A stretch of DNA of 64,000 nt from Bacillota bacterium (GCA_049323895.1 JBMOKT010000021.1:193219-257218); one strand, 5' to 3'. Counted from the stretch's first letter, positions 796 through 62,487 are shown. Numbers and translations: made by a program. Notes: a model not told the origin generated them from the sequence alone.

Positions 796-1020
796 TCCCT
801 GGATTAACAAATCCGGGGAGTTTATATTAAGAGCGCAAAAAAATAAAATGCTTAATACAAACAACCCGTAGTCAGGCAATTTACGGCTGCCTGGTAGAAA
901 CATTTGGACCATATCTCCAAATATATACAAGTCGCTTTTCCGAACATTATTTAGTTTTTCCATCATAATGTTCACTATTTGACAATATATTACCTTATTT
1001 TTAATAAAAATACAATATCA

Positions 1021-3100: not shown

Positions 3101-3627
3101 CTAGCCGTTCCTCCCTTACCATAAAGAATTAATGCCGTGGGAATTCCAGCTGCAAAGACAGCCATACCAAAGACAATACCACTTACTGCCATTTGGCTCA
3201 TCCCGCTGATAACATGACTGCTGGTACATCCCCCCGCTAAACGAGACCCAAAGAGCAATAAAAAACCTCCTAAAAATGCATGGGTAAATCTAAGATAAGG
3301 TTTATTACCAAAGCGCTCAACCCACATTTGCGGAACTTCTTCCTTTTGAATCTTGACTTTGCTTGTTTTGTTACCAGCAAAAGCCCCAATAAATAAACCC
3401 ATTACAAAAAGCCACTGCCACCCTACGGACAAACTGGCTGTACCGCCGCAGGTCCCCTTGGTCCAAGAACTAATAGGAATCCAATCTGGGAAAAAGAAAT
3501 TAGTTAAATAGCCTGTGGTTTGAGAATAAAAAGTAGTTGTTCCTAAATGATTCCCTGAAAAGAAAATTAGAATATTCAGCATTCCTAAGGCTACACCAGC
3601 TGTAACCCAAGACCATTTGCCATCCAC
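3097..3627 (-). CDS. YeeE/YedE family sulfur-compound transporter, first half-protein
   Basis: Polytopic membrane protein with the GGCTSSHVISG motif of the YeeE/YedE family. Confidence 0.75.
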   Translation of the reverse strand: MDGKWSWVTAGVALGMLNILIFFSGNHLGTTTFYSQTTGYLTNFFFPDWIPISSWTKGTCGGTASLSVGWQWLFVMGLFIGAFAGNKTSKVKIQKEEVPQMWVERFGNKPYLRFTHAFLGGFLLLFGSRLAGGCTSSHVISGMSQMAVSGIVFGMAVFAAGIPTALILYGKGGTAR

Positions 3628-3745
3628 AGTGAGGCCCCCTTATTATATTATCATTATATTATAATTATATGTTATTATTGTTTTTATAATTACGCAATAG
3701 TACTAATTTACTAAAATAAAAAGCTGATTCCTTTATTTGTCGGAA

Positions 3746-45494: not shown

Positions 45495-45528
45495 AGGTCG
45501 GGTGTTCAAGTCACCTTGCCAGCTCCAT
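45495..45528 (+). repeat. 34-bp direct repeat, left copy (candidate att site)
   Basis: AGGTCGGGTGTTCAAGTCACCTTGCCAGCTCCAT is identical to 60439-60472. Confidence 0.9.
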
Positions 45529-45538
45529 TTAAGAGAAA

Positions 45539-45572
45539 ATCCTTAGAATCGCAGTAGTTCTAAGGATTTTTT
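45539..45572. terminator. bidirectional rho-independent terminator
   Basis: ATCCTTAGAA tcgcagtag TTCTAAGGAT, flanked by an A-run and a T-run. Confidence 0.8.
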
Positions 45573-45592
45573 ATACTTTACCCACCGGAAAT

Positions 45593-45877
45593 TCAGTCTT
45601 TCATTGATAATGCAAAATCTATTGAACTCAATGATGATTCAACATTTGACAGACTTGAATGTATGTCAGTCAGATCATATCCAGTTGAACCCTTGATGCT
45701 CTCAACTGACGAATGTATATCTGAGAGATCATATCCGGCTGAGCCTTTAATACCTTCAATTGCCTCAGTTATATCGGATAGGCTATTTGATCCACCTCCA
45801 GTCAATACGTCCATTTTAGAATTCAATTCAATTAACTGATCTCGAATTTCCATCATTACACTAATTAGTTCTTCCAC
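45593..45877 (-). CDS. small acidic protein (94 aa) with internal ~21-aa tandem repeats
   Basis: IEGIKGSAGYDLSDIHSSVES / IKGSTGYDLTDIHSSLSNVES. It lies 32 nt downstream of the giant helicase gene on the same strand. Confidence 0.6.
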   Translation of the reverse strand: MEELISVMMEIRDQLIELNSKMDVLTGGGSNSLSDITEAIEGIKGSAGYDLSDIHSSVESIKGSTGYDLTDIHSSLSNVESSLSSIDFALSMKD

Positions 45878-45909
45878 ACTTGCACGCTCCTTTCATCTAA
45901 TTTTGGGTT

Positions 45910-48900
45910 TTAAACTGCCACGACTTTTCCGTCAGTTTCTTTCACTCGTCCGCTTTTTAATAAATATTCATATGCCTTTTGCAGGTTAACCTGGATTCTA
46001 TCACCGGAACGTGCAAAGCCATATTCTCTTGCGGTGGATTGCAACAAGCTATCTTTAAGAATACCATAGCTATTTGAAACAATAACCAACATAGCTTCAG
46101 CAAGCTCGTCGGTGCTTATATAATTTATGGGTCTGGTATTGCCTGTGGCTTTTGGTATAACTTTTGTGTAGTCGGAAGGATAAAAGAAGTCACCATTACG
46201 TACGACACCTTTTAAAGATTTTAGAGCATAATCAACTTCTCCACGAACCTTTACAGTCGCTTTTTCGTTACCAAGGAGTGGAGCCAGATTTTTGCACAGT
46301 AATTCGTAATGAATAGGATATTCATTATTAACCACCGCCTTGATACAATCGCCCATGCTTAGGTAACCAGAAGCATTGCGTGGCAAAGAGCTGAAATTTG
46401 TGAACGCCTGTTTTTCAAATCCATAGGGATTAACTATATTATCCGAACTGGCACCACTTTCTTTTTCATTTATACTTAAAAATTCGCTTTCCGCCTGTGA
46501 CAACGGCATTTGAGAATCTGGCTCGCTTTCTTCGGCATAATTATTAATTGCACTTTCTACGGCATCAATGAGTTTATGCCCTTCAGTCACAGGGTCTTTG
46601 ATCCAGTCGGTAGACCAAATACGATGGATTTTCCAGCCCATATCTTCAAGTACCGCCTGACGCAGACGATCTCGTTCTCGTGCCGTTCTCGCAGAGTGAT
46701 AAGCAGCACCATCACATTCAATCCCTATAACATATTGTCCGCTGATGGTCGGATGCTTAACAGCCATATCTATGCGATAACCAGAACATCCAACCTGTGT
46801 CGCAAGCTTGTAGCCTTTTCGATCCAAAAAGTTGTAGACAGCAGCCTCAAAAGGGGAATCATGTTCGATAACATCGCTTTCTGTTATTTCTCTTAATAAC
46901 ACTGACGACCCATTCATGGCAAAGTCGATGTAAGAACGGAGCAGTTTCGGCCCTTCTCTCGTGATGCGTTCAACTTCAATATCAGTCGGCAGAATGGAAC
47001 CAACTAATTTTACATTATGCTTTGCTCTTGTAATAGCAACATTAAGGCGTCGCTCTCCGCCGTCTTTAGTAAGCGGACCAAAATTCATTGCAAACTTTCC
47101 TGTTGCATCTTTGGCGTAGCCTATGCTGAATATAATGGTATCGCGTTCATCCCCTTGGACATTCTCTAAATTTTTTACGAAGAATGCCTCATCATTGTCC
47201 TCATTGAAAAATGATTCATACTGCTGATTTTCTTTTCGCATCTGACGTATGACTGTATCTATAGCCTGTTGTTGAACTTCCCCGAAAGCTATAACACCAA
47301 GAGAACGATTAGGAAATCTTCTGAAATGATCAAATACAAGTTCTCCGATGCGTTTGGCTTCAATCATATTTCCTTTTTTACCACCACGGTCATAATAGCC
47401 GTCCGGCACATAAATGTATTCAACACCATTATGCGGCACTTTATCAACGTTAGCAGGGAAAGTGATTAGGTTATTTTTATAAATCTTGGTATTCGAGAAA
47501 GCGATAAGATGTTCATGTCTGCTACGATAATGCCAAAGCAGGGTACGCTCGGGAAGCAGGCCAGCTTCATCTAAAATTGATTCATAAGCATTTGTGTCGT
47601 CGTATTCATCATCATCAACATCTGTATCAAAATCGGCATCGGAGGCAGATGACATAAAGAAATTGGTTGGCGGCAATTGCTTACTATCTCCTGCAATTAC
47701 AACCTGTTTACCTCTTGAAATCGCTCCAATAGCATTTTCGGTGCATACTTGTGAAGCCTCATCAAAGATAATGATATCGAAATCATAACTTTCCGCTTCT
47801 AAAAACAGGCTCACGGATAAAGGGGACATCATTAAGCATGGCTTAAGAGTAAGGAGCAGATTGGGGATAGCCCTGAATAATTTGCGAATAGGCATAATTC
47901 TTCGCTGTTTTCCAAGCTCTCTTTTCAGAATGCTTAATTCATCAACACCTGAAGTGAATCGTTCAAAAGCTGGAAGAGAATCAATTAATTTTTTCTTGAT
48001 CCGTGCTTTTGCTATCTCAAATTGAAGCTTGTCAAGACGAGAAAATTCAGCAATTGTATTTTCCTGTACTCTTCGGCGAAAATTGAGAACGGCTGGATAC
48101 TGAGGTAGAATTGCGTCAAGCCATAAACGATAAAACCGTTTCTTAAACATCGGAATAATAAGAGCGGCATCAATATGAAGTTCTTCAATCTTGGTTATAT
48201 AATCAGCAAGTCCCTCATTCTGGCAATTAGTACGAGCATTTCTGAAATCAATCCATTCCTCAAGCAAAGAGAGCCCATTCATACACTTGGTAACTCTATC
48301 GTAGAGAGCAAGCATACCTAAACCCTTAATATCATCCTTGTTTTCAAATATATCAAGGAACCAAGAGAACTCTGTATTCATATCAGCTATGGCGTTGGTT
48401 AAATCGGCCAAGTATTTTGCAGACAAATTTATTTTGGATTCATTGGTGCATATGTTTCTGATAAAATCTGTGTTAACTCTATAATTTTCGCAAATCTTCC
48501 TAAAATCATTTGCCCAATTTAAGGAGCTAAGAACATTTGACCAATCGGTATCCATGCCCTTGTAAAGGAAGTCATAATGCCTCTGTAAATCAGCATCACA
48601 CTCTTCTAAAGTATTGGCCAAGGCGGCAAGAAGAGATAATTTGTCTTTACTTTGCAATATGAGATTAAAAGCTTTAATCAGCTTTGACAGCAGTGTTAAA
48701 TCCGTGTTTTCACCGGAATAGTGTTCGCCAAAGGTTTGTGCTAATATTTGATTGTTTTCTGAAAGCCATATAGAGACCTCATCCAGCTCTCGGAGAGAGG
48801 TCAATGTTTCAATAATTTCAGCATCACGGACTTTATTGACAATCTGTTTATATAAACCTTTAATAGTTTTTTTATCAGTCCTGTATTGACCTTTGAAGAT

Positions 48901-50934
48901 TTTGAAAAACGATGTGTAATCCGTTTTGAACCTTGAAAGCATTGCACGGAAATCTAAATCTAAAATTTCTCGGTCAAAGGTTGATAGTAACTTATTTCGT
49001 AGCCCAAGAATGTTTTCTATATTCTGTTTCGCTGTATCAAAGAGTGCCTGTGCTTTTTGAAAATCTCCACTGTTCCAAACTGAATAGCAGTAAGTGTTTA
49101 AAATCGCAGCATCCAACTTCTCAATCTCAGAATTAATCCGAGATAATGATAATAATTCATTTGGCTCAGAAAGTGGAATGCTCGAATCATAAGCGGAGAG
49201 TTCATTATAAATATTCGACAATTCATTTTGAACATTTTTATAACTGATTTTAAGCACGGAAAATTTATCCACTTCATTCCATAATGGCGCAATATCTTCG
49301 CCAACAAGCCAATTGAAAGGTACTTTGGGCGAAAGTTTGGCTATATCTAAAATACTGACAATTTCAGAAAGCCCTGTAAAAGATGGCTTATAATCTAATT
49401 CCAAGTCAGTAAAAATGCGATTATAAATAGCAGCGGCAGCTTTAATTTTAGGTAGCAATTTTGATGAATACGCACCTATATCGTGGCTGAGTTCATTAGT
49501 AACTGCCGGTACATGAGCGTTATTCCATGGGTTGGTTTTATAATCATCACTCATTTTTCCAATAGTGGTGGTAAATTGAGTAAGTAAATTAATGTAACGA
49601 TTAAATTTTTGAGGCGTTTTATCTGCGGCATTTTCAAGGCTGAAAATGATATTTTCATAGCTTTCAAGATTAGCTAATTCGCCATTTACCTGATAAATTG
49701 TCTTCCCAAGTGGTTCGACGACGGTAAAGATTTGTCGTGCATATTCATTAAGCTTTTGTTTATCTTCTTGCAGCAAGTCAAGTTTTTGATAAGCCTCGTC
49801 ATTCAGATTTGCCCTTTGCCGAGAAAGATTTAAAACGGAAGCAAGTTGTTCCAAAACATCCTTCTTGTTTGCTTTGTAGCTGTGAAGAGTTAAGCAAAAT
49901 TCATTTAGACCTACAGAAGTAAGACGTTTACGAACCACCTCAAGGGCAGCCATCTTTTCTGAAACAAATAAAACTTTCTTGCCGGAAGCCAAGCATTCCG
50001 CGATAATATTTGTTATGGTTTGACTTTTTCCTGTACCAGGAGGCCCCTGCAGTACGAAACTAACCCCTTTTTTAGCAAGAAGAACAGCATCCTGTTGGCT
50101 TGAATCAGCATCAACAACTTGAAATATGTCAGAAGGTAGTGTCTGCGTATCATGGTCAAAATCGTTTACATCTTCGTATGTAGAGCCGATGGCCGTAGTG
50201 TCACCAGTTAGAGCCCGTACGATAGGATGCCCCTTAATCTTGTCCTTATGGATTTCCAAATCCCGATACATATTTATTTTTAAGAACGAAAGCAAGGAAA
50301 GTCCTGTCTCATGAACGACTTCCCATCTATTAGTTTTTATTAACAAATTAACTTTTGAAAAATAATCTGACAGGTTTTCTTCCGCATCAAATTCAGGAAG
50401 ATCAATACCAAAGTCATTTGACATCTTAAAGGCAAGCGTAGGATTGAGAGTAATTTCATCCTCATGAAGGCTTAGTTCATACGGCGATGTAATTGATTCC
50501 AATGTCAGCGTAACGGGAACGAGGATAATAGGCGATAAAAAATATTGTTCAGAGTTAATATCTTCGCTCCATTTAAGAAAACCAAATGACAGATAAAGGA
50601 TATTAACACCCTGCTCTTCCATTGCAGTTTTAGCCTTTTCTCGAAGATTGCGGAGTGTTTTTTGCTGATCTTTTATTGCCTGATTTGTCATAATATTTCT
50701 TTCTAAGCTGTTCTCTTGCTCATCGCTTAGAAGGGAAATTTGGTCTTCGTCATAATAGGGGAATTCAATAGGATTTTCATTTACAACAAAGCTATCCCAT
50801 AGTTTAAAAATAGATGGCTTTTGTATTCTCAAATTAGAACGTTTTGAATCACGGTAATTAAGCAAACGATTTCTTTTGCCTAGGTCAAGCAGTTTGTTTT
50901 TCCATGCTTCGAGTTTCTGATCGATATTCGGCAT
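45910..50934 (-). CDS. DUF4011 / SF1 (Upf1-DNA2-like) helicase / Vsr-DUF559-like endonuclease / DUF3320 giant protein (HheA-like)
   Basis: Start set to the ATG at 50934 (RBS GGAGGA 8 nt upstream); the tracked ORF begins at a TTG at 50952. The N-terminus LLDLGKRNRLLNYR is the DUF4011 signature. Helicase motifs are LQGPPGTGKSQT (I), IIFDEASQ (II), VIAGDSKQLPP, HYRSRHE, NVQGDERD and RRLNVAITRAK. The nuclease core is GYRIDMAV...IGIECDGAAYHSARTARERDRLRQAVLEDMGWKIHRIWSTDW. Confidence 0.8.
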   Translation of the reverse strand: MPNIDQKLEAWKNKLLDLGKRNRLLNYRDSKRSNLRIQKPSIFKLWDSFVVNENPIEFPYYDEDQISLLSDEQENSLERNIMTNQAIKDQQKTLRNLREKAKTAMEEQGVNILYLSFGFLKWSEDINSEQYFLSPIILVPVTLTLESITSPYELSLHEDEITLNPTLAFKMSNDFGIDLPEFDAEENLSDYFSKVNLLIKTNRWEVVHETGLSLLSFLKINMYRDLEIHKDKIKGHPIVRALTGDTTAIGSTYEDVNDFDHDTQTLPSDIFQVVDADSSQQDAVLLAKKGVSFVLQGPPGTGKSQTITNIIAECLASGKKVLFVSEKMAALEVVRKRLTSVGLNEFCLTLHSYKANKKDVLEQLASVLNLSRQRANLNDEAYQKLDLLQEDKQKLNEYARQIFTVVEPLGKTIYQVNGELANLESYENIIFSLENAADKTPQKFNRYINLLTQFTTTIGKMSDDYKTNPWNNAHVPAVTNELSHDIGAYSSKLLPKIKAAAAIYNRIFTDLELDYKPSFTGLSEIVSILDIAKLSPKVPFNWLVGEDIAPLWNEVDKFSVLKISYKNVQNELSNIYNELSAYDSSIPLSEPNELLSLSRINSEIEKLDAAILNTYCYSVWNSGDFQKAQALFDTAKQNIENILGLRNKLLSTFDREILDLDFRAMLSRFKTDYTSFFKIFKGQYRTDKKTIKGLYKQIVNKVRDAEIIETLTSLRELDEVSIWLSENNQILAQTFGEHYSGENTDLTLLSKLIKAFNLILQSKDKLSLLAALANTLEECDADLQRHYDFLYKGMDTDWSNVLSSLNWANDFRKICENYRVNTDFIRNICTNESKINLSAKYLADLTNAIADMNTEFSWFLDIFENKDDIKGLGMLALYDRVTKCMNGLSLLEEWIDFRNARTNCQNEGLADYITKIEELHIDAALIIPMFKKRFYRLWLDAILPQYPAVLNFRRRVQENTIAEFSRLDKLQFEIAKARIKKKLIDSLPAFERFTSGVDELSILKRELGKQRRIMPIRKLFRAIPNLLLTLKPCLMMSPLSVSLFLEAESYDFDIIIFDEASQVCTENAIGAISRGKQVVIAGDSKQLPPTNFFMSSASDADFDTDVDDDEYDDTNAYESILDEAGLLPERTLLWHYRSRHEHLIAFSNTKIYKNNLITFPANVDKVPHNGVEYIYVPDGYYDRGGKKGNMIEAKRIGELVFDHFRRFPNRSLGVIAFGEVQQQAIDTVIRQMRKENQQYESFFNEDNDEAFFVKNLENVQGDERDTIIFSIGYAKDATGKFAMNFGPLTKDGGERRLNVAITRAKHNVKLVGSILPTDIEVERITREGPKLLRSYIDFAMNGSSVLLREITESDVIEHDSPFEAAVYNFLDRKGYKLATQVGCSGYRIDMAVKHPTISGQYVIGIECDGAAYHSARTARERDRLRQAVLEDMGWKIHRIWSTDWIKDPVTEGHKLIDAVESAINNYAEESEPDSQMPLSQAESEFLSINEKESGASSDNIVNPYGFEKQAFTNFSSLPRNASGYLSMGDCIKAVVNNEYPIHYELLCKNLAPLLGNEKATVKVRGEVDYALKSLKGVVRNGDFFYPSDYTKVIPKATGNTRPINYISTDELAEAMLVIVSNSYGILKDSLLQSTAREYGFARSGDRIQVNLQKAYEYLLKSGRVKETDGKVVAV

Positions 50935-50935
50935 A

Positions 50936-51145
50936 TTAGGTATCCTCCTCAACTAATTCGACGATATCCCCGATGTCAACATTTAGAGCGGTACAAACTT
51001 TTACAAGCGCATCCATACTCACATATTCGTCTTTTCCTAATTTAGCAAGTGTTGATGTGCTGATATTTGCTTTTTCAAGTAAATCGATTTTTTTCATACC
51101 TTTATCGATAAGCAGTTTCCATAGTTTTTTATAAGATATTTTCAT
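50936..51145 (-). CDS. XRE-family HTH protein (69 aa) preceding the helicase-nuclease gene
   Basis: LWKLLIDKGMKKIDLLEKANISTSTLAKLGKDEYVSMDALVKVCTALNV. Its stop lies 1 nt from the helicase ATG. Confidence 0.85.
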   Translation of the reverse strand: MKISYKKLWKLLIDKGMKKIDLLEKANISTSTLAKLGKDEYVSMDALVKVCTALNVDIGDIVELVEEDT

Positions 51146-51330
51146 TTCGGCACCTCTCAGGCTACAGTATTAAAATGCATTATATTACATTATATTACTT
51201 TTTCGATAAAACACAATATAAAATCTACCAATCTGTAAATTACATCATCAAAACTACAATTTATTTGCAGACTTGTGAAAGTAGGTAGAGTATTGTCTGT
51301 TGCTGAAGGGAGGTAGTTAAAATAAAGAAA

Positions 51331-51930
51331 ATGACTGCCGGAATAGCTGTTATCGCCTGTGTCGCATTATGTGCCACTGTGTGGCCACGAAGCGCCGAGG
51401 TCGGGGATTTACCCACCGAGCCGGTAAAAACTGCCGTAACCACCGAAATTGAGGCTCGGTCAGAGGGAATTCCGCAAATTCTTTTCTCTACAGAGTCTCC
51501 TGCGCCTAATACTGAGGGTGCCGTAGAGAGTGAGCAGGAGAACCTTGTGGTAACATCAGAAGAAAAAACAGAAACAGCACCGCCGATAGCCCTGACATCT
51601 CACGCTGTATCAAAATCCGTACCAGCCTCCACCGAACCAAAACCAGGTGATAGAACAGTCAGCGACGGCAAGCCTTATTTCTGGATACCAGGCTTCGGAT
51701 GGATTGAATACAGCGGTAAGCAAAGTGTCGAAGTCATCGCCAAGGATATGTTCGAGAACGGTCATAAAATCGGCTCTATGGGAGGCAGCGAAGTACCACC
51801 GAGAGAATCAACCCCTCCAGCATTAAAGCAACTGAAATCAACCGATGGAGAAATTTATATAATGTTCGTTGAAGTGCCTGAGAAGAACAGTACCCCGCCG
51901 CCATATAAACCCGAAGCAGTGTCCCCGTAA
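51331..51930 (+). CDS. hypothetical membrane-anchored Pro/Glu/Thr-rich protein, likely conjugative-element cargo
   Basis: N-terminal TM helix and the conserved-looking core GKPYFWIPGFGWIEYSGK...DMFENGHKIGSMG. GC is clearly higher than in the surroundings. The link to ICE proteins found next to serine recombinases comes from memory only. Confidence 0.5.
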   Translation: MTAGIAVIACVALCATVWPRSAEVGDLPTEPVKTAVTTEIEARSEGIPQILFSTESPAPNTEGAVESEQENLVVTSEEKTETAPPIALTSHAVSKSVPASTEPKPGDRTVSDGKPYFWIPGFGWIEYSGKQSVEVIAKDMFENGHKIGSMGGSEVPPRESTPPALKQLKSTDGEIYIMFVEVPEKNSTPPPYKPEAVSP

Positions 51931-51947
51931 ACCTACTTTTCAATATA

Positions 51948-51977
51948 AGATCTGCAATACACAGCAGGTCTTTTTTA
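51948..51977 (+). terminator. rho-independent terminator
   Basis: AGATCTGC aatacaca GCAGGTCT followed by TTTTTT. Confidence 0.7.
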
Positions 51978-52125
51978 TTGACTGATTATAAGAACAAAAA
52001 AATTCCGTGCAGATATCTCTCCCAACGTGAAAGTAAGTAGGAGGTAAAAATTTTGGTCCAACGGGTCCTCTCAAAGTGTAAATAATTAGAGGAAAAATTT
52101 ACTCCGTGCAGCCCCCTGATTTTTT

Positions 52126-54022
52126 CCCTAAAGTAAGCTCTCGGAAAGTAAGTAGTAAAAGCCGGTAGAAATTAGCAACCAGACTAAAAAAATTATGTTT
52201 TTGAAAAGAAAGTTATGTAAAAAGGGAAAATGTGCAAGACAAATAGACCTAGCATTTGATTTTTTTAAAAAAACTAGGCTAAAAAGATGTTTGTATTAAA
52301 AGGGATATATTAAGCAGCTATCTGTTTCACTTCACTTTCCCATTGCAGAATTAAACCTTTAATATCTAGTTTAAGATGCTTAACCATTGCATCCATATGT
52401 AAGCACATGGCGTCAACAAAAACTCTAAAGTTCCAAGCTCTGGAACTACGGATTTTACCTCTTTTTTCTAAGCGGTAATCTTCCTTAAGTCTCTTATTAA
52501 AGCGTTCAGAAGCAGTGCGACGTTTATAACGTTCTTTCCAGAGAGCACTATCACGAGGGATGCGAGTAAAAAAGCGAAGATTATCTTCTTCCCTAGTGTA
52601 AATAACACGACCATAGGAAGAATTTGAACAAGAGGCAGAGCAATTAATATTCCATTTTTTTCGCGATTTAGGACAGCGCCATTTATGCCTTTGCCGGTCC
52701 TTACAATAACCATGATAAGCCATAATATGATCGGCTTTATTGCAAAAAGGGATACCATCTTTAGTGAAGGAGAAGTCATTATTAAGAGCAGAGACACCGG
52801 TATTACGATTGTTTAAATCAATGATAGCTGTGACATTATTGGTATGCAATAACTGGTAAATAGGGTAAGCATCATGAGCGGAATCTAAGATGCATTCACT
52901 AAAATTAAACTCAGGATAAAGCTGTAAAGCATCAAAAAAAGAATAAACAAAAGCAATACTATCATGGCGATTGGCCTTATGGAGATAAAGATAAACAGGT
53001 AAATCGTAAGGGCTATTGGTAGCGGTAAATGCATAAAGGCTACGACCATAATAGTATTCCTCCCGATAGCTATCCCAGCCCCAAGTGGCATCAGGGTCAC
53101 TATACTTACGGGAGCACTTACAATTAAAAACTTTGTTTTTTCTACAATCACAAATTAATTTTCCGTAACGGCTTGCACCCGTGCGGACTGAGGTACCGTC
53201 CCCGGCAATAGAAAGGTTATTTATATCCCCCAAAAGCCCCTTTTGAGCAGAGGGAATGACAAAGCACTCCTTAAAGATCTGCTGTAACAGGTCATGAGGA
53301 CGGGAATGGAAACTAGGTGGATGCTTTAGAAGTCGGTTAACCAAACGTTTAACAGCGCCGGGTTTTTTAAGAGGCGACTTATCCCCTTTTTTCTTGCCTT
53401 TTTTAGGTTTGCGCCGGGGTTTACGGACCTTACTTGAGATATAAGCAGAAGTAGCTAACCAAAGACGTTTTAAGAAATCATAAAAAGTACCTACCCCGGG
53501 GACATCATTAGGATGAAAGCCACTTAAGATGGCCCAGATGGGAAAAGCCTTCAGGTTATTGACCCAATCATCGATAGTTCTTTCTTGGGTTAACTCCATT
53601 AGGAGTAGGGACCGAAAAATATCTACGGGATCACGGGAAGGGGCTCCTTTATTAGGAGAATAACTGTCATTTAAATTTGTAGCTACTTTACTTAAATCAG
53701 TAACCCATACTCTGGCAAATTCCCGTTGATGAAGTAAAACAGTTTGAGTTGTTCCTGATAGGAAGTAATGAATTTTTAATTGTTCAACTACAAATTGTTG
53801 AAACTCTTGATGAGAACGAGAAGATTTTAGCATAAAAATCACCATCCAAAACCTTGTTAGTAGGCAAAAATGCCTCCATCGCAATTATGGTGGTGATTTG
53901 GATTTGTCAAGTCCCAATTTGTTATCTATGAGATTTGGAGGAAAAAACAAAAATGGCCAAGGTGAAGACCTTGAACCATATAGCTTTCGGAATTTCCGAG
54001 AGACTTACTAAAGAATTAGGAG
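52126..54022 (-). mobile_element. IS element (IS1182/IS5-superfamily-like), 1897 bp, with an 8-bp target site duplication
   Basis: Imperfect terminal inverted repeats: CCCTAAAGTAAGCTCTCGGAAA (52126-52147) versus the reverse complement of TTTCCGAGAGACTTACTAAAGAATTAGGAG (53993-54022). GATTTTTT flanks both ends (52118-52125 and 54023-54030). One transposase ORF lies inside. Confidence 0.7.
52310..53833 (-). CDS. DDE transposase with DUF772-like N-terminal domain (IS1182/IS5 type)
   Basis: ORF trimmed to the ATG at 53833. The N-terminal block GAPSRDPVDIFRSLLLMEL...VPGVGTFYDFLKRLW fits the DUF772 pattern. Candidate DDE residues lie in IAGDGT, LDSAHDAYPIY and SERFNKRLKE. Confidence 0.75.
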   Translation of the reverse strand: MLKSSRSHQEFQQFVVEQLKIHYFLSGTTQTVLLHQREFARVWVTDLSKVATNLNDSYSPNKGAPSRDPVDIFRSLLLMELTQERTIDDWVNNLKAFPIWAILSGFHPNDVPGVGTFYDFLKRLWLATSAYISSKVRKPRRKPKKGKKKGDKSPLKKPGAVKRLVNRLLKHPPSFHSRPHDLLQQIFKECFVIPSAQKGLLGDINNLSIAGDGTSVRTGASRYGKLICDCRKNKVFNCKCSRKYSDPDATWGWDSYREEYYYGRSLYAFTATNSPYDLPVYLYLHKANRHDSIAFVYSFFDALQLYPEFNFSECILDSAHDAYPIYQLLHTNNVTAIIDLNNRNTGVSALNNDFSFTKDGIPFCNKADHIMAYHGYCKDRQRHKWRCPKSRKKWNINCSASCSNSSYGRVIYTREEDNLRFFTRIPRDSALWKERYKRRTASERFNKRLKEDYRLEKRGKIRSSRAWNFRVFVDAMCLHMDAMVKHLKLDIKGLILQWESEVKQIAA

Positions 54023-54119
54023 GATTTTTTTCACTCAACCCCTCAAAATTTTCCCTAAAGATATAGAGGGCAAAATTTTTTTCCGTCCAAACCCCTGTTT
54101 TTTTCCTTATAGATATAGT

Positions 54120-54976
54120 ATTCCGTCACCAGAGGAGGATTGGATTGTAGTCGAAAATGCACATGAGTCAATCATCTCACAGGAGCTTTGGGACACAGTG
54201 CAGCAGCTGATGAAGAGCCGCAAACGTGAGAACAGCAGCGGAGAGGTACAGATGTTTGCGGGATTGGTCAAGTGTTCAAAATGCGGCTCTTCACTTAATG
54301 TCAGCTTCGATAAGAAGAAAGGCAAATACACCGGTTTCTCCTGCTGGGTATACAAGAACTATGGCAAGGAACGGTGCACATCTCACGCAATTGGCTGGAA
54401 AACCACCATGAATCAACTTGTGCTGGAGGACATCCGCTGTAATGCAAAGGCGGCGAAGCTGGCGACGTCTAAATACAAGGATATGATTATTGCCGCAAAG
54501 ACTGAAAAGAAAAAGCAGGAAACCGAAAAATGCAAGCGTGAACTGAAAACCATAGAAAAAAGAATCACCGAGCTGGACAAGATTATGAACAAGCTCTACG
54601 AGGACTTGGCACTCGAACAGAAAAGCTCGCCGAGGAGCGCTATCAAGTCATGTCCAAACGCTACGAGGAAGAGCAGGCAGGGCTTAAAGAGCGGAGAAAT
54701 CAGATCACTGAACTGATTTCCCGTGCCGAGTTGGTATACGAAAATATTGATAAATTCCTGCCGATTATACAAAAGTACACCGATATAACTGAGCTGAATA
54801 CACAAATCCTTAACGAGCTGATACAGAAGATTGTGGTCTACGAAAAGACAGATAACCCTGATGGCAGCAAAAGCCAGCGAGTGGACATACATTATAATTT
54901 TATCGGGTATGTGGAAATGAAAGAGATGTTCGGGCTGCCGATGGTCATGGCAATGGCGAAGGAACTCGTCGGATGA
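54120..54976 (+). pseudogene. large serine recombinase, C-terminal two-thirds only, 5'-truncated and frameshifted
   Basis: It begins abruptly with IPSPEEDWIVVENAHESIISQELWDTVQ (recombinase domain), then the zinc beta-ribbon VKCSKCGSSL...CTSH and a coiled coil. The frame changes near 54615 (frame of 54198..54716 to frame of 54650..54976). No resolvase catalytic N-domain is present. Confidence 0.8.
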
Positions 54977-55001
54977 ATGCAATGCCCGGATGCAATACGG
55001 A

Positions 55002-55030
55002 TTGCGAATAAAGGAAATATTTGTTATAAT
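55002..55030 (+). promoter_or_regulatory. candidate extended -10 promoter for the 55.2-60.4 kb cassette
   Basis: TTGCGA (55002-55007), 17 nt, TG-n-TATAAT (55022-55030). A 34-nt near-palindrome (55058-55091) and a hairpin with T-run (55104-55135) lie between it and the first gene. Confidence 0.35.
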
Positions 55031-55182
55031 ATATCTAAATAGCAGAATATTCGGATGATTATAAGCCCCTCGAATTCGATGGGTTTATAATCTTGGACTA
55101 CTTAAATTACTTCCCTGCGAGGTAATTTATTTTATATGGTTGAAATTTCTTGAGGTATTTAAGGTGAAAGGGGTTATAAATA

Positions 55183-56271
55183 ATGAAATATGAGATTGAT
55201 TTCATTGGGATAAATGAAGACTGCAAAGATGCCTCTACCGTCTGCTTTCGTTTCTATTCAAAGAAAAATCAGCGATACATTGTTGGCGTATATGACGGAG
55301 GATTTAAAGCACACGGAGAAGCTCTTGTAAAACTTTTGGATAAATATTACTTCCAAAATGATTCTGAACCGAGCATCGACTTTGTTATATGCTCGCATAG
55401 TGACGATGATCATGCATCTGGGCTTACAGAGATTTTCTACAATTTCTCTGTAAATCATTTAATAATGAATAGGCCTTGGGAATACGCCGATGATCTATAT
55501 GAGTATATAAGTGATGGAAGAAAACTGTTAATAGCCTAAAACAAGAATTGAAGGAAAAGTATAGCTCTATAGCTGCATTGGAAGAAAAGGCTATTGAACA
55601 AGGAACAACTATTCATGAGGGTTTTCAGGGGTCTGAATATTTTTGATGCACTTACAATTCTATCGCCATCAAAAGAAATGTTCCTTGACCTGATAATTGA
55701 ATCCTCTAAAACGCCGCTAACGCCAGTAAGTGAAAGTTCTTCGCTGTTCAGAAAATTTATTGAAGCAGCTGTGACAATGATTGCGGATATTTGGGGGAAG
55801 GACTCTATACGCGAAGGAGAGTCAACGACTGCCGAGAATGAAACTTCTATCGTAATACATGGTAATATGGATGATAGTGGAGAATTCCTCTTGACAGGTG
55901 ATGCAGGAGTTCGTGCATTAAGTGCCTCAGCTGACTATGCGGAGAGTCAAGGAATCGATTTGCACTCTGTCAATTTTCACCAGATTCCTCACCATGGAGG
56001 AAGGCATAATGTATCCCCAAGTGTTCTTAACAGGATAATTGGAGATATCGTAGAAGAAGGCAGTAAGGCAGTCAAAACCGCATTTGTTTCAATCGGGAAA
56101 AACTCTGACCATCCTAAAAAAATGGTTGTTAATGCCTATATCCGTAGAGGAGTAAAGGTGTTCGAAGCGCGGGCTTCATCAAAATGGCATCACCATGGTA
56201 CCCCTGGCAGAGAAGACTATAGTCCGGCAACTTCCCTATCATTTAGTAACCAAGTTGAGAGTTGGGATTGA
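55183..56271 (+). pseudogene. MBL-fold (ComEC/Rec2-like) metallo-hydrolase, interrupted by two opposite frameshifts
   Basis: Metal motif ICSHSDDDHASGL in the first ORF and LLTGDAG...FHQIPHHGGRHN in the second. Both tracked ORFs are in the same frame, but the ~110 nt between them (about 55520-55630) is only open in another frame (KTVNSLKQELKEKYSSIAALEEKAIEQGTTIHEGFQG). Confidence 0.7.
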
Positions 56272-56282
56272 TAGGTAGCACT

Positions 56283-56954
56283 ATGAGTACGCTTAAAAGT
56301 TATAGAGATAATGAGTTAAAATGGTTCATTTTAGCGTATTTGTTTTTAGTAATTGGGAGTAGCAATCTTGACATTGTTAAAAGCACTGATATGGAAGCAT
56401 TATCAAAAATAGAGAGTTTGGTTTCAACGGCTTTGATTTCAGGAGCGATATGTTCTCTGGCATTTGTAATAGATAGTCTTTATTCGCAGTTGATGAAGGA
56501 CACTCTGCTCTATTTGGGTATTACAAAGATGCCTGGGACAACTGTATTTACTCGAATAAAAAATGGGACGTTAAATGATATTCGCTTTGGAATAATACAT
56601 GCGCAAGAAAAGTACAAAGACATTATAGATAATATTCCTTCGAATAAATCAAAAGCTCGTTATGAAAATTCAAATTGGTATAAGATATATGTCAAACATA
56701 AAGAAGATTCTGCGGTCAGTTCAGTGCATAGAGATTTCCTATTATGCAGAGATCTGTACATAACAACGATATCATTGGCAGTTCTAACTGGAATAGCAAT
56801 GGTTGTGAAATTAGTTTCTTTTAGCTGGATTTTATTGGGTTACCTAATTGCTACGGCTATTATAACAAGCTGTTCTGCACATAACAAAGCTCACAGATTT
56901 GTAAATACTGTGATAGCTGTGGATGTCGCAGCAATGGCAAACGATGAGAAGTAG
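56283..56954 (+). CDS. hypothetical 4-TM membrane protein
   Basis: It has two N-terminal and two C-terminal hydrophobic helices around a ~90-aa soluble segment. It follows the MBL gene almost directly (11-nt gap; the longer tracked ORF start at 56262 would overlap it). No recognised domain. Confidence 0.6.
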   Translation: MSTLKSYRDNELKWFILAYLFLVIGSSNLDIVKSTDMEALSKIESLVSTALISGAICSLAFVIDSLYSQLMKDTLLYLGITKMPGTTVFTRIKNGTLNDIRFGIIHAQEKYKDIIDNIPSNKSKARYENSNWYKIYVKHKEDSAVSSVHRDFLLCRDLYITTISLAVLTGIAMVVKLVSFSWILLGYLIATAIITSCSAHNKAHRFVNTVIAVDVAAMANDEK

Positions 56955-56998
56955 TTAAATTCCCTACAAATTAGGGGGTACTTCAGAGAGAGGGAAAT

Positions 56999-57859
56999 AT
57001 GTCAAATTTAAACGCTGAAGAATATAAATCATTTGAAAGCATAAAGCATGTTCGCGAAAACGGAAAGAGAATTTTGGTTCGCGCGGGAGCTTGCTGAGGT
57101 TTTAGAATATGTACAATGGAGAAATTTTCAGAAAGTAATTGACCGTGCTATTCTTGCCTGTAAAAACAGCGGATTTGCGGTTATCGACCATTTTGCTGAG
57201 GTCAGCAAAATGGTCGATATAGGCAGTTTAACTCAAAGAAAAATTAGAGAGACTATGAACTTACACGCTATGCTTGTTACTTAATTGTTCAAAACGGCGA
57301 TCCGAGAAAAGAAATTATCGCATTGGGTCAAACCTATTTCGCTATACAGACGCGGTGCCAGGAAGTCCAGGATGCTTTTAATCAGCTTGACGAAAACAAC
57401 AAACGGTTAGTTGTTCGCGGCAATATAAAACATTGGAATCAGCTCCTTGCTGAAGCGGCACACAATGCCGGAGTTATTACCGATGAGGAATTTGCAATCT
57501 TCCAGAATGCCGGATACATGGGCCTTTATGGCGGCATGACGGTCTCCGATATTCATACAAGAAAAGGCTTGAAGAAAAACGATAAAATCCTTGATTATAT
57601 GGGCAGCACAGAGCTGATTGCTAATCTGTTCAGAATTTCGCAGACCGAAGAAAAGCTGAAGCGGGATGAGGTTTCTACGGTGGAAGCCGCAAATAATACC
57701 CATTACGAGGTCGGTGAAAAAATCCGTAAAGCCATTATTGAAATGGGGGCTACCCTTCCGGAAGACCTGCCTGTTCCGGAGAAAAATATTCAGACTATTG
57801 AGCGTGAGGAAATTCGCAAGCTTAGAAATTCGAAAAAGAAGCTGATGCTGGATGAATAA
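56999..57859 (+). pseudogene. dinD: DNA-damage-inducible protein D (DinD) homolog, two frameshifts
   Basis: The conserved DinD-like sequence is spread over three frame segments. These are MSNLNAEEYKSFESIKHVRENGKE (from 56999), FWFARELAEVLEYVQWRNFQKVIDRA... (57048..57284 frame), and [35 protein letters not shown]... (57323..57859 frame). Confidence 0.7.
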
Positions 57860-57930
57860 ACCCGTCGATTTCGACTGGTTTAAATGATAGTTGCCTTCTA
57901 TATTTACTTTTCAAACAGGGGGTTGCAGTT

Positions 57931-58863
57931 TTGGAGCAAAAGAAATCGACTGATTTTAATATCTATTATTTAAATTTCTCAAAAGTTTATGAAATTGCCA
58001 TGATGATAAACAATGTTATTCTTACTAAAATCGAAAAAGATCATAGTAAAAGTTTTGAGGAGCAATATGGCTTTACATCATCAATATCAGCCCAAGGAAC
58101 GAAATCATTTCTTGATGGAATAAAGGCTTCAATATCTTCAGACGCGAGAGAAACATCTTTTTCTTCTTCTAAGGTTATCGAAACATTAGATGTGAAAACG
58201 ACTAAATCCATATTGCTCCGAAGAGTAATTGAACGATGTGCAAATGTTAAAAACTTTGATGAATTAAGTGAAGGAGACCTTGTTAAGATTGATAATGTCA
58301 GGCTTGAATTGTTAGATGAAGAAAGCCTGCGACAGTTTTTAATTCTCAGACGAGATGCTTTAAAAGGGGTTAGGGTTGAAGGCATGGAGATTAATAATCT
58401 CATTAGTTCCATGCTACAAGATTATGCCTACATACTTAAGGGGTCTGTAGCCGACAACAAAAAAGATTCTGCTATTACTGAAATTATTATTAAAATCCCT
58501 CTTGAAATACAAACGGAGTTTGAAAACAAATATAATATAGACGATTTACTTATTGGGCATGTCTCTGTTGTGGGCATGTACAAAGGAATTGTAAAAGAAG
58601 AATTTATATCATCGAATACGTTTACTTATCTTCAGGAAATAGGTATTCGTCAGTCGGCGGACAGTACTTCAAAAATTATTAAGAGTTCCACGCCGCCAGT
58701 TCCAATTGCCGGGAAAGCAGCACAAAAACAAGACGAGTATCATTTCATTGATACTTTAGCAATTATACAGGACGTTGCTTTTAAATTAGAGGAACTGAAA
58801 ACGACTAAATTGCATTGGTGGAACAAGATTGGCATTTGGCTTAGTAATTTGAAGAGGAGTTGA
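57931..58863 (+). CDS. hypothetical 310-aa protein, candidate DolA-like (DUF6414?) partner of the AAA+ ATPase
   Basis: TTG start with AGGGGG 8 nt upstream and no TM segments. Its stop lies 3 nt before the next gene. The family assignment rests only on architecture. Confidence 0.45.
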   Translation: MEQKKSTDFNIYYLNFSKVYEIAMMINNVILTKIEKDHSKSFEEQYGFTSSISAQGTKSFLDGIKASISSDARETSFSSSKVIETLDVKTTKSILLRRVIERCANVKNFDELSEGDLVKIDNVRLELLDEESLRQFLILRRDALKGVRVEGMEINNLISSMLQDYAYILKGSVADNKKDSAITEIIIKIPLEIQTEFENKYNIDDLLIGHVSVVGMYKGIVKEEFISSNTFTYLQEIGIRQSADSTSKIIKSSTPPVPIAGKAAQKQDEYHFIDTLAIIQDVAFKLEELKTTKLHWWNKIGIWLSNLKRS

Positions 58864-58866
58864 AGA

Positions 58867-60411: not shown

Positions 60412-60438
60412 TATTTATACTACCTTACCAACAACCAC

Positions 60439-60472
60439 AGGTCGGGTGTTCAAGTCACCTTGCCAGCTCCAT
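60439..60472 (+). repeat. 34-bp direct repeat, right copy
   Basis: Identical to 45495-45528. Confidence 0.9.
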
Positions 60473-62485: not shown

Positions 62486-62487
62486 AT

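What the first reader, a model, noticed from the sequence alone, without database searches (positions are those of the whole stretch)
45593..51145. HTH / giant DUF4011-helicase-Vsr-like nuclease / small repeat protein operon (Hhe-like with extra partners)
The ~1675-aa protein combines a DUF4011-type N-terminus (LLDLGKRNRLLNYR), all SF1 Upf1/DNA2-like helicase motifs, a DUF559/Vsr-like endonuclease core (IGIECDGAAYHS...RDRLRQAVLEDMGWKIHRIW) and a DUF3320-like tail. As I recall, this is the domain set given for the single-gene Hhe system of Gao et al. 2020. Here the gene is translationally linked to an upstream XRE HTH (stop 1 nt from its ATG) and followed after 32 nt by a 94-aa repeat protein, so it looks like a three-gene unit. 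A tandem 10-mer CATTATATTA x2 (51168-51187) sits in the HTH promoter region. On the coding strand it reads TAATATAATG x2, a plausible autoregulatory operator overlapping -10 boxes.
Basis: partly seen in the sequence, partly recalled or inferred. Interest (0 to 1): 0.6.

Follow-up and report, generated by a model that had tools for sequence, protein, structure and literature searches.

The report
Giant helicase-nuclease defence gene with partners
This is a very large helicase-plus-nuclease gene of a catalogued (mostly single-gene) anti-phage family, sitting in a decayed mobile defence island; its upstream repressor is a recent add-on, while the tiny acidic repeat protein after it belongs to a rare, undescribed family that keeps turning up right behind this kind of helicase.

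Summary
All three ORFs exist as described: HTH 50936-51145, 1674-aa helicase-nuclease 45910-50934 and a 94-aa repeat protein 45593-45877, all on the minus strand. The tandem 10-mer is at 51178-51197, 10 nt from the stated position.

The giant protein belongs to the DUF4011 / Upf1-like SF1B helicase / MTES_1575 (Vsr-like) nuclease superfamily. Its best match is PADLOC's untested candidate PDC-S37. It scores below NCBI's equivalog cut-offs for the validated relatives ProA (Prometheus) and Hhe.

It is accessory: 2 of 41 related genomes carry such a gene. It lies at the end of a 15-kb defence island bracketed by 34-bp direct repeats.

Family-wide it is a single-gene system. Across 80 species-level loci no neighbour is conserved.

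The HTH, with its 1-nt stop/start junction, occurs only in relatives at least 85% identical. The "operator" is a window-specific 10-bp duplication of the -10 box.

The small protein is the interesting part. It is under purifying selection and very acidic, and it belongs to a tiny family with no database annotation. In 8 of 11 contexts it lies downstream of a DUF4011 helicase or its remnant, across two separate helicase clades. Its function is unknown.

Verdict: a known kind, with a possibly new lineage-specific accessory.

The parts
45910..50934 (-). Giant helicase-nuclease, 1674 aa, of the PDC-S37 / Prometheus / Hhe superfamily
   Evidence: ORF. PADLOC PDC-S37 1435 bits and Hhe 636 bits. NCBIfam ProA 1296 bits against 1500 and Hhe 898 bits against 2000. 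More than 7900 homologs across phyla.
50425..50895 (-). DUF4011 N-terminal domain (aa 14-170)
   Evidence: Pfam PF13195, E 3.6e-39 and 1.1e-40 on the isolated segment.
50023..50046 (-). Walker A motif GPPGTGKS (aa 297-304) of SF1B helicase domain 1A
   Evidence: Invariant in the 15-sequence alignment A1. Covered by AAA_19, AAA_30 and AAA_11 hits. PDB profile hits to IGHMBP2 and Upf1 fall on aa 276-397.
47815..49857 (-). About 680-aa insert with no recognisable domain, splitting the helicase core (aa 360-1040)
   Evidence: No Pfam family at E below 0.07. It lies between the Walker A region and motif II (DEAS, aa 1058-1061). The literature notes a characteristic insertion in the helicase of Prometheus (PMC13700489).
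46996..47793 (-). Helicase motifs II-VI (AAA_11 C-terminal part plus AAA_12, aa 1048-1313)
   Evidence: Pfam PF13086 and PF13087. PDB profile hits to Sen1 and DNA2 fall on aa 1045-1104.
46561..46851 (-). MTES_1575 / Vsr-like PD-(D/E)xK nuclease domain (aa 1362-1458)
   Evidence: Pfam PF18741, E 2.6e-37; DUF559 weak. D1389, E1406, D1408 and H1413 are invariant in A1.
46243..46347 (-). Sub-threshold DUF3320-like stretch in the C-terminal tail (aa 1530-1564)
   Evidence: Pfam PF11784, 20.5 bits against a cut-off of 25. PF11784 is recorded for several homologs.
50936..51145 (-). 69-aa Cro/C1-type HTH (HTH_26), with its stop 1 nt from the helicase ATG
   Evidence: Pfam PF13443, 66.9 bits. It is 94-97% identical and shows the same 1-nt junction in L081 and L083, and L089 has the same 1-nt junction (coordinates). 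dN/dS 0.03-0.12.
51189..51216 (-). Conserved core promoter: TTGTGT (51216-51211), 16-nt spacer, TATAAT (51194-51189)
   Evidence: The alignment of four relatives keeps TTG(T/C)GT, the spacer and the -10 box. A promoter-like site also appears in the scan.
51178..51197 (-). Tandem TAATATAATG x2, a window-specific 10-bp duplication of the -10 region
   Evidence: Exact tandem. The second copy is absent from L081, L083 and L089. No genome-wide enrichment over the control.
45593..45877 (-). 94-aa acidic repeat protein: N-terminal helix, three 18-aa repeats, C-terminal helix
   Evidence: ORF. dN/dS 0.08-0.17. Family alignment A2. pI 4.15, net charge -12. AF2 model with four helices, pLDDT 81, pTM 0.38. 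Lies downstream of DUF4011 helicases in 8 of 11 contexts.
45536..45570 (-). Hairpin followed by a U-rich tract, the likely intrinsic terminator of the operon
   Evidence: RNA fold -14.6 kcal/mol, z -2.1. No terminator-like site between the helicase and the small gene.
45495..45528 (+). Left copy of a perfect 34-bp direct repeat that looks like a tRNA 3' end (left island boundary)
   Evidence: the repeat finder D1. No complete tRNA in the window.
60439..60472 (+). Right copy of the 34-bp direct repeat (right island boundary)
51331..51930 (+). DUF6550 protein, divergent from the HTH and part of the mobile-element backbone
   Evidence: Pfam PF20187. The same divergent arrangement occurs in L081.
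52310..53884 (-). IS1182-like DDE transposase that replaces the middle of the element
   Evidence: Pfam DDE_Tnp_1 and NCBIfam IS1182. The window lacks the L081 3045-7258 backbone.
54198..54716 (+). Stump of a large serine recombinase
   Evidence: Zn_ribbon_recom. 81% DNA identity to the intact L081 recombinase over 833 bp.

Best explanation
The locus is an anti-phage defence cassette carried as cargo at the end of a decayed serine-recombinase mobile element, inside a 15-kb defence island.

Effector (inferred). The effector is one giant protein of the DUF4011 / SF1B helicase / Vsr-like nuclease superfamily. This superfamily holds PADLOC candidate PDC-S37 and the validated Prometheus ProA and Hhe. 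By analogy with its Upf1/Sen1/DNA2-like motor, I infer that it loads on invader-specific nucleic-acid structures (single-stranded DNA or R-loops) and translocates 5'->3' using ATP. It would then cut with the C-terminal PD-(D/E)xK nuclease. The DUF4011 head, the ~680-aa insert and the DUF3320-like tail would serve as sensing or autoinhibitory parts.

HTH (inferred function). The 69-aa Cro/C1-type HTH was added in the recent ancestry of this clade. It is translationally coupled to the helicase and most likely represses the shared sigma-70-type promoter. That would keep a dangerous nuclease at a low, fixed dose.

Small protein (least certain step). The 94-aa acidic repeat protein is most likely co-transcribed: the gap is 32 nt, it has its own RBS, and the only terminator follows it. 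My preferred reading is a lineage-specific accessory that binds the helicase-nuclease, for example as a DNA-mimic-like modulator or inhibitor. It is dispensable for the family's core activity.

Shown: domain content, intact catalytic motifs, accessory distribution, defence-island setting, the conservation pattern of the neighbours, and purifying selection on all three genes.

Inferred: anti-phage activity of this clade, the substrate, repression by the HTH, co-transcription, and any physical contact between the small protein and the helicase.
For: Identity:
- PADLOC PDC-S37 1435 bits and Hhe 636 bits.
- NCBIfam ProA 1296 bits and Hhe 898 bits.
- Pfam DUF4011, AAA_11/12 and MTES_1575.
- PDB profile hits to IGHMBP2, Sen1, Upf1 and DNA2.
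- Walker A, DEAS, motif VI and nuclease D/E/D/H residues are invariant.

Accessory and mobile:
- DUF4011 is present in 2 of 41 relatives.
- Cross-phylum homologs at 57-60% identity.
- 496 plasmid records carry a homolog.
- 34-bp direct repeats bracket 45495-60472.
- The recombinase stump and DUF6550 match the intact element in L081.
- Neighbours match PDC-M37A/B, PDC-S13 and type III R-M models.

Single-gene core: no conserved neighbour in 80 species-level loci.

HTH:
- Identical 1-nt junction, and HTH proteins 94-97% identical, in L081 and L083. L089 has the same 1-nt junction (coordinates).
- dN/dS 0.03-0.12.
- Conserved promoter.
- A 63%-identical HTH also precedes a helicase that is only 40% identical in L028.

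Small protein:
- dN/dS 0.08-0.17.
- 8 of 11 contexts lie downstream of a DUF4011 helicase or its remnant, always on the same strand.
- These helicases fall in two separate well-supported clades.
- pI about 4.1 across the family.

Literature:
- Hhe protects against lambda, T3, T7 and PhiV-1, and needs its Vsr-domain Glu (bioRxiv 10.1101/2022.06.16.496414).
- ProA was validated in P. aeruginosa, and all of its domains are needed (PMC13700489 citing van den Berg et al. 2024).
Against: - No experiment exists for PDC-S37 or this clade. Most PDCs are unvalidated (PMC12988326).
- The protein falls below the curated equivalog cut-offs of both validated relatives and lacks the first ~356 ProA profile positions.
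- In P. aeruginosa a large DUF4011 gene is a conserved core gene flanking a defence hotspot (PMC10250203). Not every member need be a mobile defence gene.
- HTH function and operator are untested, and the tandem 10-mer is not conserved.
- The small protein is absent from close helicase relatives L083 (85%), L086 (77%) and L084 (72%).
- It persists intact where the helicase is deleted (L090) or absent (L095, G153).
- It shows no fusion to helicases among the 52 representatives.
- Its AF2 pTM is 0.38 and it has no fold match.
- No transcript data could be obtained.
Confidence: 0.7

Rival explanations
1. The small protein is an unrelated cargo gene that merely shares the variable slot at the end of these mobile elements. 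It could be, for example, an acidic anti-restriction or DNA-mimic protein serving the element itself. It would have no functional tie to the helicase, and only the HTH-helicase pair (or the helicase alone) would be the defence unit.
For: - DNA homology between the window and its relatives stops exactly at the helicase stop codon.
- The slot behind it holds different genes: nothing extra in the window, a 248-aa gene in L081, a 394-aa gene in L083, a 500-aa gene in L086.
- The small gene survives intact beside a deleted helicase (L090), and behind IS fragments with no helicase nearby (L095, G153).
- Recombinase or integrase genes follow it in L093, L096 and L099.
- It is absent from all 80 species-level helicase loci.
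Against: - 8 of 11 contexts place it downstream of, and on the same strand as, a DUF4011 helicase.
- These include two helicase clades only ~56% identical to each other and separated on the tree by many helicases without it.
- Elements with different recombinases (serine and tyrosine) still keep the helicase-then-small order.
- The 32-nt gap has an RBS and no terminator.
Confidence: 0.4
2. One reading: HTH, helicase-nuclease and small protein form an obligate three-gene defence system. This would be a multi-component variant of Hhe in which all three are required.
For: - Tight spacing: a 1-nt and a 32-nt gap, with one promoter and one terminator.
- The same three genes in the same order occur in L089, and in L081 with an inserted gene.
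- All three are under purifying selection.
Against: - The trio is limited to relatives at least 86% identical.
- L083 (85%) has the HTH but another downstream gene. L086 (77%) and L084 (72%) have neither partner.
- The ~1850-aa helicases that carry the small protein have no HTH.
- Family-wide, no partner is conserved.
- Validated relatives work as single genes (PMC13700489).
Confidence: 0.1
3. The giant protein is a housekeeping DNA repair or R-loop-processing enzyme rather than a defence protein. Its island location would be incidental.
For: - Its nearest solved relatives (Sen1, DNA2, IGHMBP2, Upf1) are housekeeping nucleic-acid enzymes.
- In P. aeruginosa a large DUF4011 gene is conserved in every isolate (PMC10250203).
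Against: - Present in only 2 of 41 related genomes, and single-copy here.
- Bracketed by direct repeats together with a transposase, a recombinase stump and other defence candidates.
- Frequently plasmid-borne.
- The tree mixes phyla.
- The relatives ProA and Hhe have measured anti-phage activity.
Confidence: 0.05

Closest known systems
PDC-S37 (PADLOC-DB v2 'phage defence candidate', single gene; model PDLC05009)
   Same: Best-scoring model, reaching the C-terminal end of the profile (1435 bits, E = 0). Single large gene embedded among other defence genes, which is how PDCs were defined (guilt by embedding; PMC12988326).
   Different: PDC-S37 has no published experimental test that I could find: zero papers mention it. 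Here the gene has a clade-specific HTH in front and a rare small protein behind, and neither is part of the PDC-S37 definition.
Prometheus ProA (Pseudomonas aeruginosa; van den Berg et al. 2024, Cell Host Microbe 32:1427, as cited in PMC13700489)
   Same: The same four-part plan: DUF4011, a DNA2/Upf1-like helicase with a large insertion, a nuclease, and a DUF3320-type tail. It is a single-protein system, and NCBIfam ProA is the top NCBIfam hit (1296 bits, aa 5-1642).
   Different: Below the equivalog cut-off (1500). The first ~356 ProA profile positions have no counterpart, since the match starts at profile position 357. DUF3320 is sub-threshold here. ProA has no reported HTH or small-protein partner.
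Hhe (Gao et al. 2020 single-gene system; E. coli)
   Same: DUF4011 N-terminus, SF1 helicase and Vsr-like nuclease. In Hhe the nuclease Glu is essential and the system protects against lambda, T3, T7 and PhiV-1. PADLOC Hhe scores 636 bits and NCBIfam Hhe 898 bits.
   Different: The best-scoring matched stretch covers only the C-terminal half (aa 679-1448 in PADLOC, 831-1474 in NCBIfam). The score is far below the equivalog cut-off (2000). The N-terminal half and the insert differ.
Controller (C) proteins of restriction-modification systems and other small XRE/Cro regulators in front of defence genes
   Same: A small Cro/C1-type HTH (HTH_26, 66.9 bits) sits immediately upstream of, and is translationally coupled to, a potentially self-toxic nuclease gene, behind a shared promoter.
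   Different: No operator has been identified. The candidate tandem 10-mer is not conserved. DNA binding and autoregulation are untested.
Acidic DNA-mimic proteins (Ocr, ArdA and similar): a resemblance in character only
   Same: Small, strongly acidic (pI about 4.1, net -9 to -16), all-helical, and encoded on a mobile element next to a nucleic-acid enzyme.
   Different: No sequence or fold similarity was detected. The regular 18-aa repeat architecture is unlike known mimics, and no phage homologs were found.

Membership tests
PDC-S37 (PADLOC) | Significant match to the PADLOC PDC-S37 profile that reaches the C-terminal end of the profile | tested here: met
   PDLC05009: E = 0, 1435.5 bits, 3 stretches. 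The best stretch aligns aa 760-1670 to profile 645-1543 of 1550.
PDC-S37 (PADLOC) | Single-gene system found embedded among defence genes | tested here: met
   No conserved neighbour in 80 loci. In the window it sits in an island with PDC-M37A/B, PDC-S13-like and PDC-M48B-like genes, next to a type III R-M system.
PDC-S37 (PADLOC) | Demonstrated anti-phage activity | not testable with these tools
   No paper mentions PDC-S37. Most PDCs are unvalidated.
Prometheus ProA | NCBIfam equivalog NF058533 score at or above the curated cut-off (1500 bits) | tested here: not met
   1296.3 bits. The alignment covers profile 357-1903, so the first 356 positions are unmatched.
Prometheus ProA | Four domains: DUF4011, DNA2/Upf1-like helicase with a characteristic insertion, nuclease, DUF3320 | tested here: inconclusive
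   DUF4011, the split helicase with a ~680-aa insert, and the MTES_1575 nuclease are all clear. DUF3320 reaches only 20.5 bits against 25, although several homologs carry it.
Hhe | NCBIfam equivalog NF042953 score at or above the curated cut-off (2000 bits) | tested here: not met
   898.3 bits. The best stretch aligns aa 831-1474 to profile 1054-1696.
Hhe | DUF4011 N-terminus plus SF1 helicase plus Vsr-like nuclease with catalytic acidic residues | tested here: met
   Pfam hits. D1389, E1406 and D1408 are invariant in A1. Equivalence of E1406 to Hhe E1731 is inferred and was not aligned here.
SF1B Upf1-like helicases | Walker A, motif II (DE), motif VI arginines, and similarity to Upf1/Sen1/IGHMBP2/DNA2 | tested here: met
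   GPPGTGKS 297-304, DEAS 1058-1061 and GGERRLNVAITRA 1292-1304 are invariant. PDB profile hits at E 1.5e-12 to 2e-6.
Cro/C1-type HTH (Pfam HTH_26) | Pfam PF13443 above the gathering score | tested here: met
   66.9 bits against 22.
VanU transcriptional regulator | NCBIfam equivalog NF000090 at or above 150 bits | tested here: not met
   80.5 bits. It is a relative only, and there is no van operon here.
Baculo_PEP_C (only Pfam hit of the small protein) | Pfam PF04513 above the gathering score (38 bits) | tested here: not met
   19.5 bits. This is compositional coiled-coil similarity. There is no PHROG, PADLOC or NCBIfam hit.

The most novel reading that the evidence does not exclude
The acidic 18-aa-repeat protein is a dedicated partner of DUF4011 helicase-nucleases. 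It would be a DNA-mimic-like inhibitor or trigger-sensing adaptor that gates the nuclease. That would make this, together with the ~1850-aa Desulfosporosinus-type loci, a previously unrecognised two-component (here three-gene, regulated) variant of Prometheus/Hhe-type immunity. The variable 'middle' genes, which share exchangeable N- and C-terminal modules, would be further adaptors.
Probability: 0.25. Interest if true: 0.6.

Novelty: new variant of a known kind. Interest (0 to 1): 0.4.

Why it matters
DUF4011 helicase-nucleases (Hhe, Prometheus, PDC-S37) are widespread and are treated as single-gene immune systems. How they are kept off in uninfected cells, and what triggers them, is not known. 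A small, rare, strongly conserved acidic protein that repeatedly follows such helicases in one bacterial lineage is a concrete, cheap-to-test candidate regulator or inhibitor. The clade-specific HTH gives a second handle on dosage control. If the small protein is only a hitchhiker, the locus is an ordinary new member of a catalogued candidate family. Its value is then mainly as a worked example that neighbours seen in one genome need not belong to the system.

Tried and rejected
- Operator hypothesis. I aligned the promoter regions of four relatives. The second 10-mer is a window-only insertion. A genome-wide count of such tandems (2) equals the reversed-pattern control. Rejected as a conserved operator. 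A near-tandem copy at 3641-3661 precedes an unrelated ORF.
- tRNA at the island boundary. ARAGORN finds no tRNA and Rfam finds only a purine riboswitch. The 34-bp repeat only resembles a tRNA 3' end.
- Annotation of the small protein. Pfam, PADLOC, NCBIfam and PHROGs give nothing above threshold. tblastn against phages finds no match. Foldseek against PDB and BFVD finds nothing. TRF sees no DNA-level tandem array.
- Rosetta-stone fusion of the small protein to a helicase. None of the 52 HMMER representatives is a ~1700-aa protein. The large hits are coiled-coil or tail-type repeat proteins.
- The 34-bp repeat at the element ends of relatives. Not found within 5 mismatches.
- The primary Prometheus paper is not in the library. 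It is cited second-hand.
Only 10 of the ~21 small-protein clusters, plus one genome hit, could be placed in context.
Full report
**Observation.** The HTH (69 aa, 50936-51145) ends in TAA. One base later comes the ATG of the giant ORF (45910-50934, 1674 aa), preceded by GAGGAGGA. The ATG, rather than the upstream TTG, is the start that matches the homolog consensus MxNIDxKLEAWK. Thirty-two bases after the helicase stop, behind a GGAG, a GTG opens a 94-aa ORF (45593-45877). A hairpin with a U-rich tail follows it at 45536-45570 (-14.6 kcal/mol). No terminator-like site lies between the genes. The tandem TAATATAATG x2 is real but lies at 51178-51197, 10 nt from the stated coordinates.

**What the giant protein is.**
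- Pfam gives DUF4011 (aa 14-170, E 3.6e-39), the SF1 helicase domains AAA_11/AAA_12, and the MTES_1575 restriction-endonuclease-like domain (aa 1362-1458, E 2.6e-37). DUF559/Vsr is a weak secondary hit.
- The helicase core is split by a ~680-aa insert with no recognisable domain. The claimed DUF3320 tail is only sub-threshold in this protein (20.5 bits against 25), although several homologs carry it.
- A profile of 15 homologs hits IGHMBP2, Sen1, Upf1 and DNA2 in the PDB, so the motor is Upf1-like SF1B. No member of the family itself has a solved structure in the copy searched.
- Walker A (GPPGTGKS 297-304), DEAS (1058-1061), motif VI and the nuclease residues D1389, E1406, D1408 and H1413 are invariant. 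The enzyme therefore looks catalytically intact.
- Against defence libraries the best model is PADLOC's PDC-S37 (1435 bits), well above Hhe (636 bits, C-terminal half only).
- In NCBIfam the best model is 'anti-phage protein ProA' (1296 bits). That is below its 1500-bit equivalog cut-off, and the first 356 profile positions are unmatched. Hhe follows at 898 bits against 2000.
- ProA is the single protein of the Prometheus system, validated in P. aeruginosa. [quoted passage not shown] 2024).
- Hhe is reported to protect against lambda, T3, T7 and PhiV-1 and to depend on a Glu of its Vsr domain.
- PDCs are guilt-by-embedding candidates that mostly await validation.
- So the protein is a member of the superfamily. 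It is an equivalog of neither validated system and fits the untested PDC-S37 best.

**Accessory, not housekeeping.**
- Both the helicase and the small gene are single-copy in the 3.95-Mb genome.
- A DUF4011 gene is present in only 2 of 41 related genomes.
- The family has more than 7900 members. Homologs at 57-60% identity occur in Bacillota, Bacteroidota, Synergistota, Verrucomicrobiota and others. It also occurs on 496 plasmid records, including haloarchaeal ones.
ARAGORN finds no complete tRNA.
- Inside that segment lie a DUF6550 gene, an IS1182-like transposase and a serine-recombinase stump.
- The closest relative (L081, Candidatus Dichloromethanomonas, helicase 91% identical) has the intact element: resolvase/recombinase, AAA_25, DUF6076, DUF6550, then HTH and helicase. 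The window matches its ends but has lost the middle.
- The rest of the segment carries PDC-M37A/B, a PDC-S13-like fragment and a PDC-M48B-like fragment. A type III R-M system starts just beyond the right repeat.

**Are the partners part of the system? Family-wide, no.**
- I fetched 80 species-level loci with flanks. tblastn finds the small protein in none of them. It finds an HTH homolog directly upstream in one (L028) and a fragment in another (L052).
- I then scanned the same-strand ORFs immediately upstream (41) and downstream (58) against Pfam. Upstream there are 2 HTH_26, 1 HTH_17 and 1 HTH_3. Downstream the only recurrences are a protein kinase (3 loci, with overlapping or 1-nt junctions) and one PC4-like protein.
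- This fits a single-gene system.

**The HTH.**
- All four members of the immediate clade with upstream sequence (window, L081 91%, L089 86%, L083 85%) have the same 69-aa HTH_26 protein. The HTH proteins of L081 and L083 are 94-97% identical to the window's. All four share the same 1-nt junction. The HTH gene has dN/dS 0.03-0.12.
- Relatives at 77% (L086) and 72% (L084) lack it.
- A 63%-identical HTH also precedes a helicase that is only 40% identical, from a different clade (L028). This HTH lineage has therefore paired with such helicases more than once.
- The four promoter regions share TTG(T/C)GT, a 16-nt spacer, TATAAT, and two AATTGYAG-like motifs further upstream. The second TAATATAATG is a 10-bp insertion found only in the window.
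- Genome-wide there are two such tandems. The other lies at 3641-3661, before an unrelated ORF. The reversed-pattern control also gives two.
- The 'operator' reading is therefore not supported. A repressor role for the HTH remains the sensible inference from its family and position, but it is untested.

**The small protein.**
- It is a real gene. Against three orthologs, dS is 0.33-0.52 and dN 0.04-0.06, giving dN/dS of 0.08-0.17. That is like the helicase (0.07-0.08).
- Its family is tiny. It has 21 clusters among 5.8 billion proteins and 52 representatives among 1.84 billion. It appears in 1 of 88 genomes of the class and in 2 strong hits among 401 genomes of the phylum.
- Members share a conserved N-terminal helix, 2-5 copies of an 18-aa repeat (G.GYDL[ST]DI...L..I.G) and a conserved C-terminal segment. 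Length differences come in whole repeat units.
- All members are strongly acidic, with pI about 4.1 and net charge -9 to -16.
- AlphaFold2 predicts four helices (pLDDT 81) but an uncertain packing (pTM 0.38).
- Nothing matches in Pfam, PADLOC, NCBIfam, PHROGs, phage genomes, PDB or BFVD.

**Where the small protein sits.** I could examine eleven distinct contexts.
- Window: 32 nt after the helicase.
- L089: HTH, helicase, a 134-nt gap, then the small gene.
- L081: a 248-aa gene lies between, and the small gene is cut by an IS.
- L092: an 1847-aa helicase, an overlapping 224-aa gene, then the small gene.
- L093/L094: helicase C-terminus, three tiny ORFs, the small gene, then a serine recombinase.
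- L096-L098: an 1859-aa helicase, a 41-aa ORF, the small gene, then a tyrosine integrase.
- L099: helicase C-terminus, then the small gene.
- L090/L091: at first sight a helicase-free type I R-M island. In fact it retains the last ~90 helicase codons (83.5% identical) just upstream of the small gene.
- L095 and genome G153 have no helicase within 9 kb. Both have IS fragments directly upstream.
- L101 is too short to tell.

That makes 8 of 11 contexts with a DUF4011 helicase or its remnant upstream, always on the same strand. On a helicase tree, the small-linked helicases fall into two separate, well-supported clades, each nested among helicases without it. The tree needs at least two gains or several losses. 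The two clades are ~56% identical over the C-terminal half.

Against an obligate role, three things stand out. Close relatives L083, L086 and L084 lack the small gene. Homology between the window and its relatives stops exactly at the helicase stop, and different genes occupy the slot behind it. The small gene also persists where the helicase is gone.

**Mechanism (inferred).** The SF1B motor probably engages invader single-stranded DNA or R-loop-type structures and translocates 5'->3'. The PD-(D/E)xK domain would cut. The head, the insert and the tail would sense or autoinhibit. The HTH would set a low dose from a shared promoter. The small acidic protein would be co-transcribed. My preferred, weakly held reading is that it modulates the enzyme, perhaps as a nucleic-acid mimic. 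The hitchhiker reading is nearly as likely.

**Verdict.** The core is a new member of a known, catalogued kind. The recurrent small acidic partner and the clade-specific coupled HTH make the locus a possible new variant. Interest is moderate.

**Limits.**
- The primary Prometheus paper could not be read.

Noticed in passing
window 45495-45528 and 60439-60472: A perfect 34-bp direct repeat that resembles a tRNA 3' end (T-arm plus acceptor) brackets a ~15-kb accessory segment. No complete tRNA or tmRNA is detected anywhere in the window, so the true integration target is unclear.
   Followed up: partly
L081:13068-13814, L092:7206-7880, L083:8711-9895: The 'middle' genes between helicase and small protein are modular. 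L081's 248-aa and L092's 224-aa proteins share a ~130-aa C-terminal domain (46% identity), although their helicases belong to different clades. L081's 248-aa and L083's 394-aa proteins share the first 100 aa (65%). L092's protein has an EF-Tu domain-2 fold at its N-terminus. None has a Pfam family for the shared parts.
   Followed up: partly
L090:7675-7947: A remnant of the last ~90 codons of a window-type helicase (83.5% identity) sits just upstream of an intact small-protein gene. It lies inside a type I R-M / HigBA-like island. The helicase was deleted but the small gene was kept.
   Followed up: yes
L015:8376-10061, L016:11552-13246, L022:9497-11182: In one Clostridia subclade of DUF4011 helicases, a ~560-aa Ser/Thr protein kinase gene follows with an overlapping or 1-nt junction. 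This may be a different two-gene variant of the family.
   Followed up: no
L020:11515-11739 and L093:1397-1588: A small PC4/YdbC-like single-stranded-DNA-binding protein directly follows the helicase in two unrelated loci.
   Followed up: no
L097, L099 and L101 (genes next to the small protein): A ~1000-aa Metallophos plus NACHT/NB-ARC STAND-type protein recurs within 1-2 genes of the small protein in three contexts. In L101 it is directly downstream on the same strand.
   Followed up: no
window 3641-3661 (-): The only other tandem of the TAATATAAT motif in the whole genome (TAATATAATG-A-TAATATAATA) lies directly upstream of the RBS of an unrelated 176-aa ORF (3097-3627, -).
   Followed up: partly
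window 55594-56271, 57323-57859, 57931-60411, 60836-63999: Other defence-type genes lie in and beside the island: a PDC-M48B-like MBL-fold fragment, a PDC-S13-like fragment, a complete PDC-M37A/B pair (the B protein is distantly DolB-like), and a type III R-M methyltransferase plus restriction subunit just outside the right repeat.
   Followed up: partly
L081:14154-14648: In the closest relative the small-protein gene is truncated at codon 78 by what looks like an IS256-type transposase gene. This is read from the sequence only and was not scanned.
   Followed up: no
window 849-950 (-): Purine riboswitch aptamer (Rfam RF00167, 85.6 bits).
   Followed up: no
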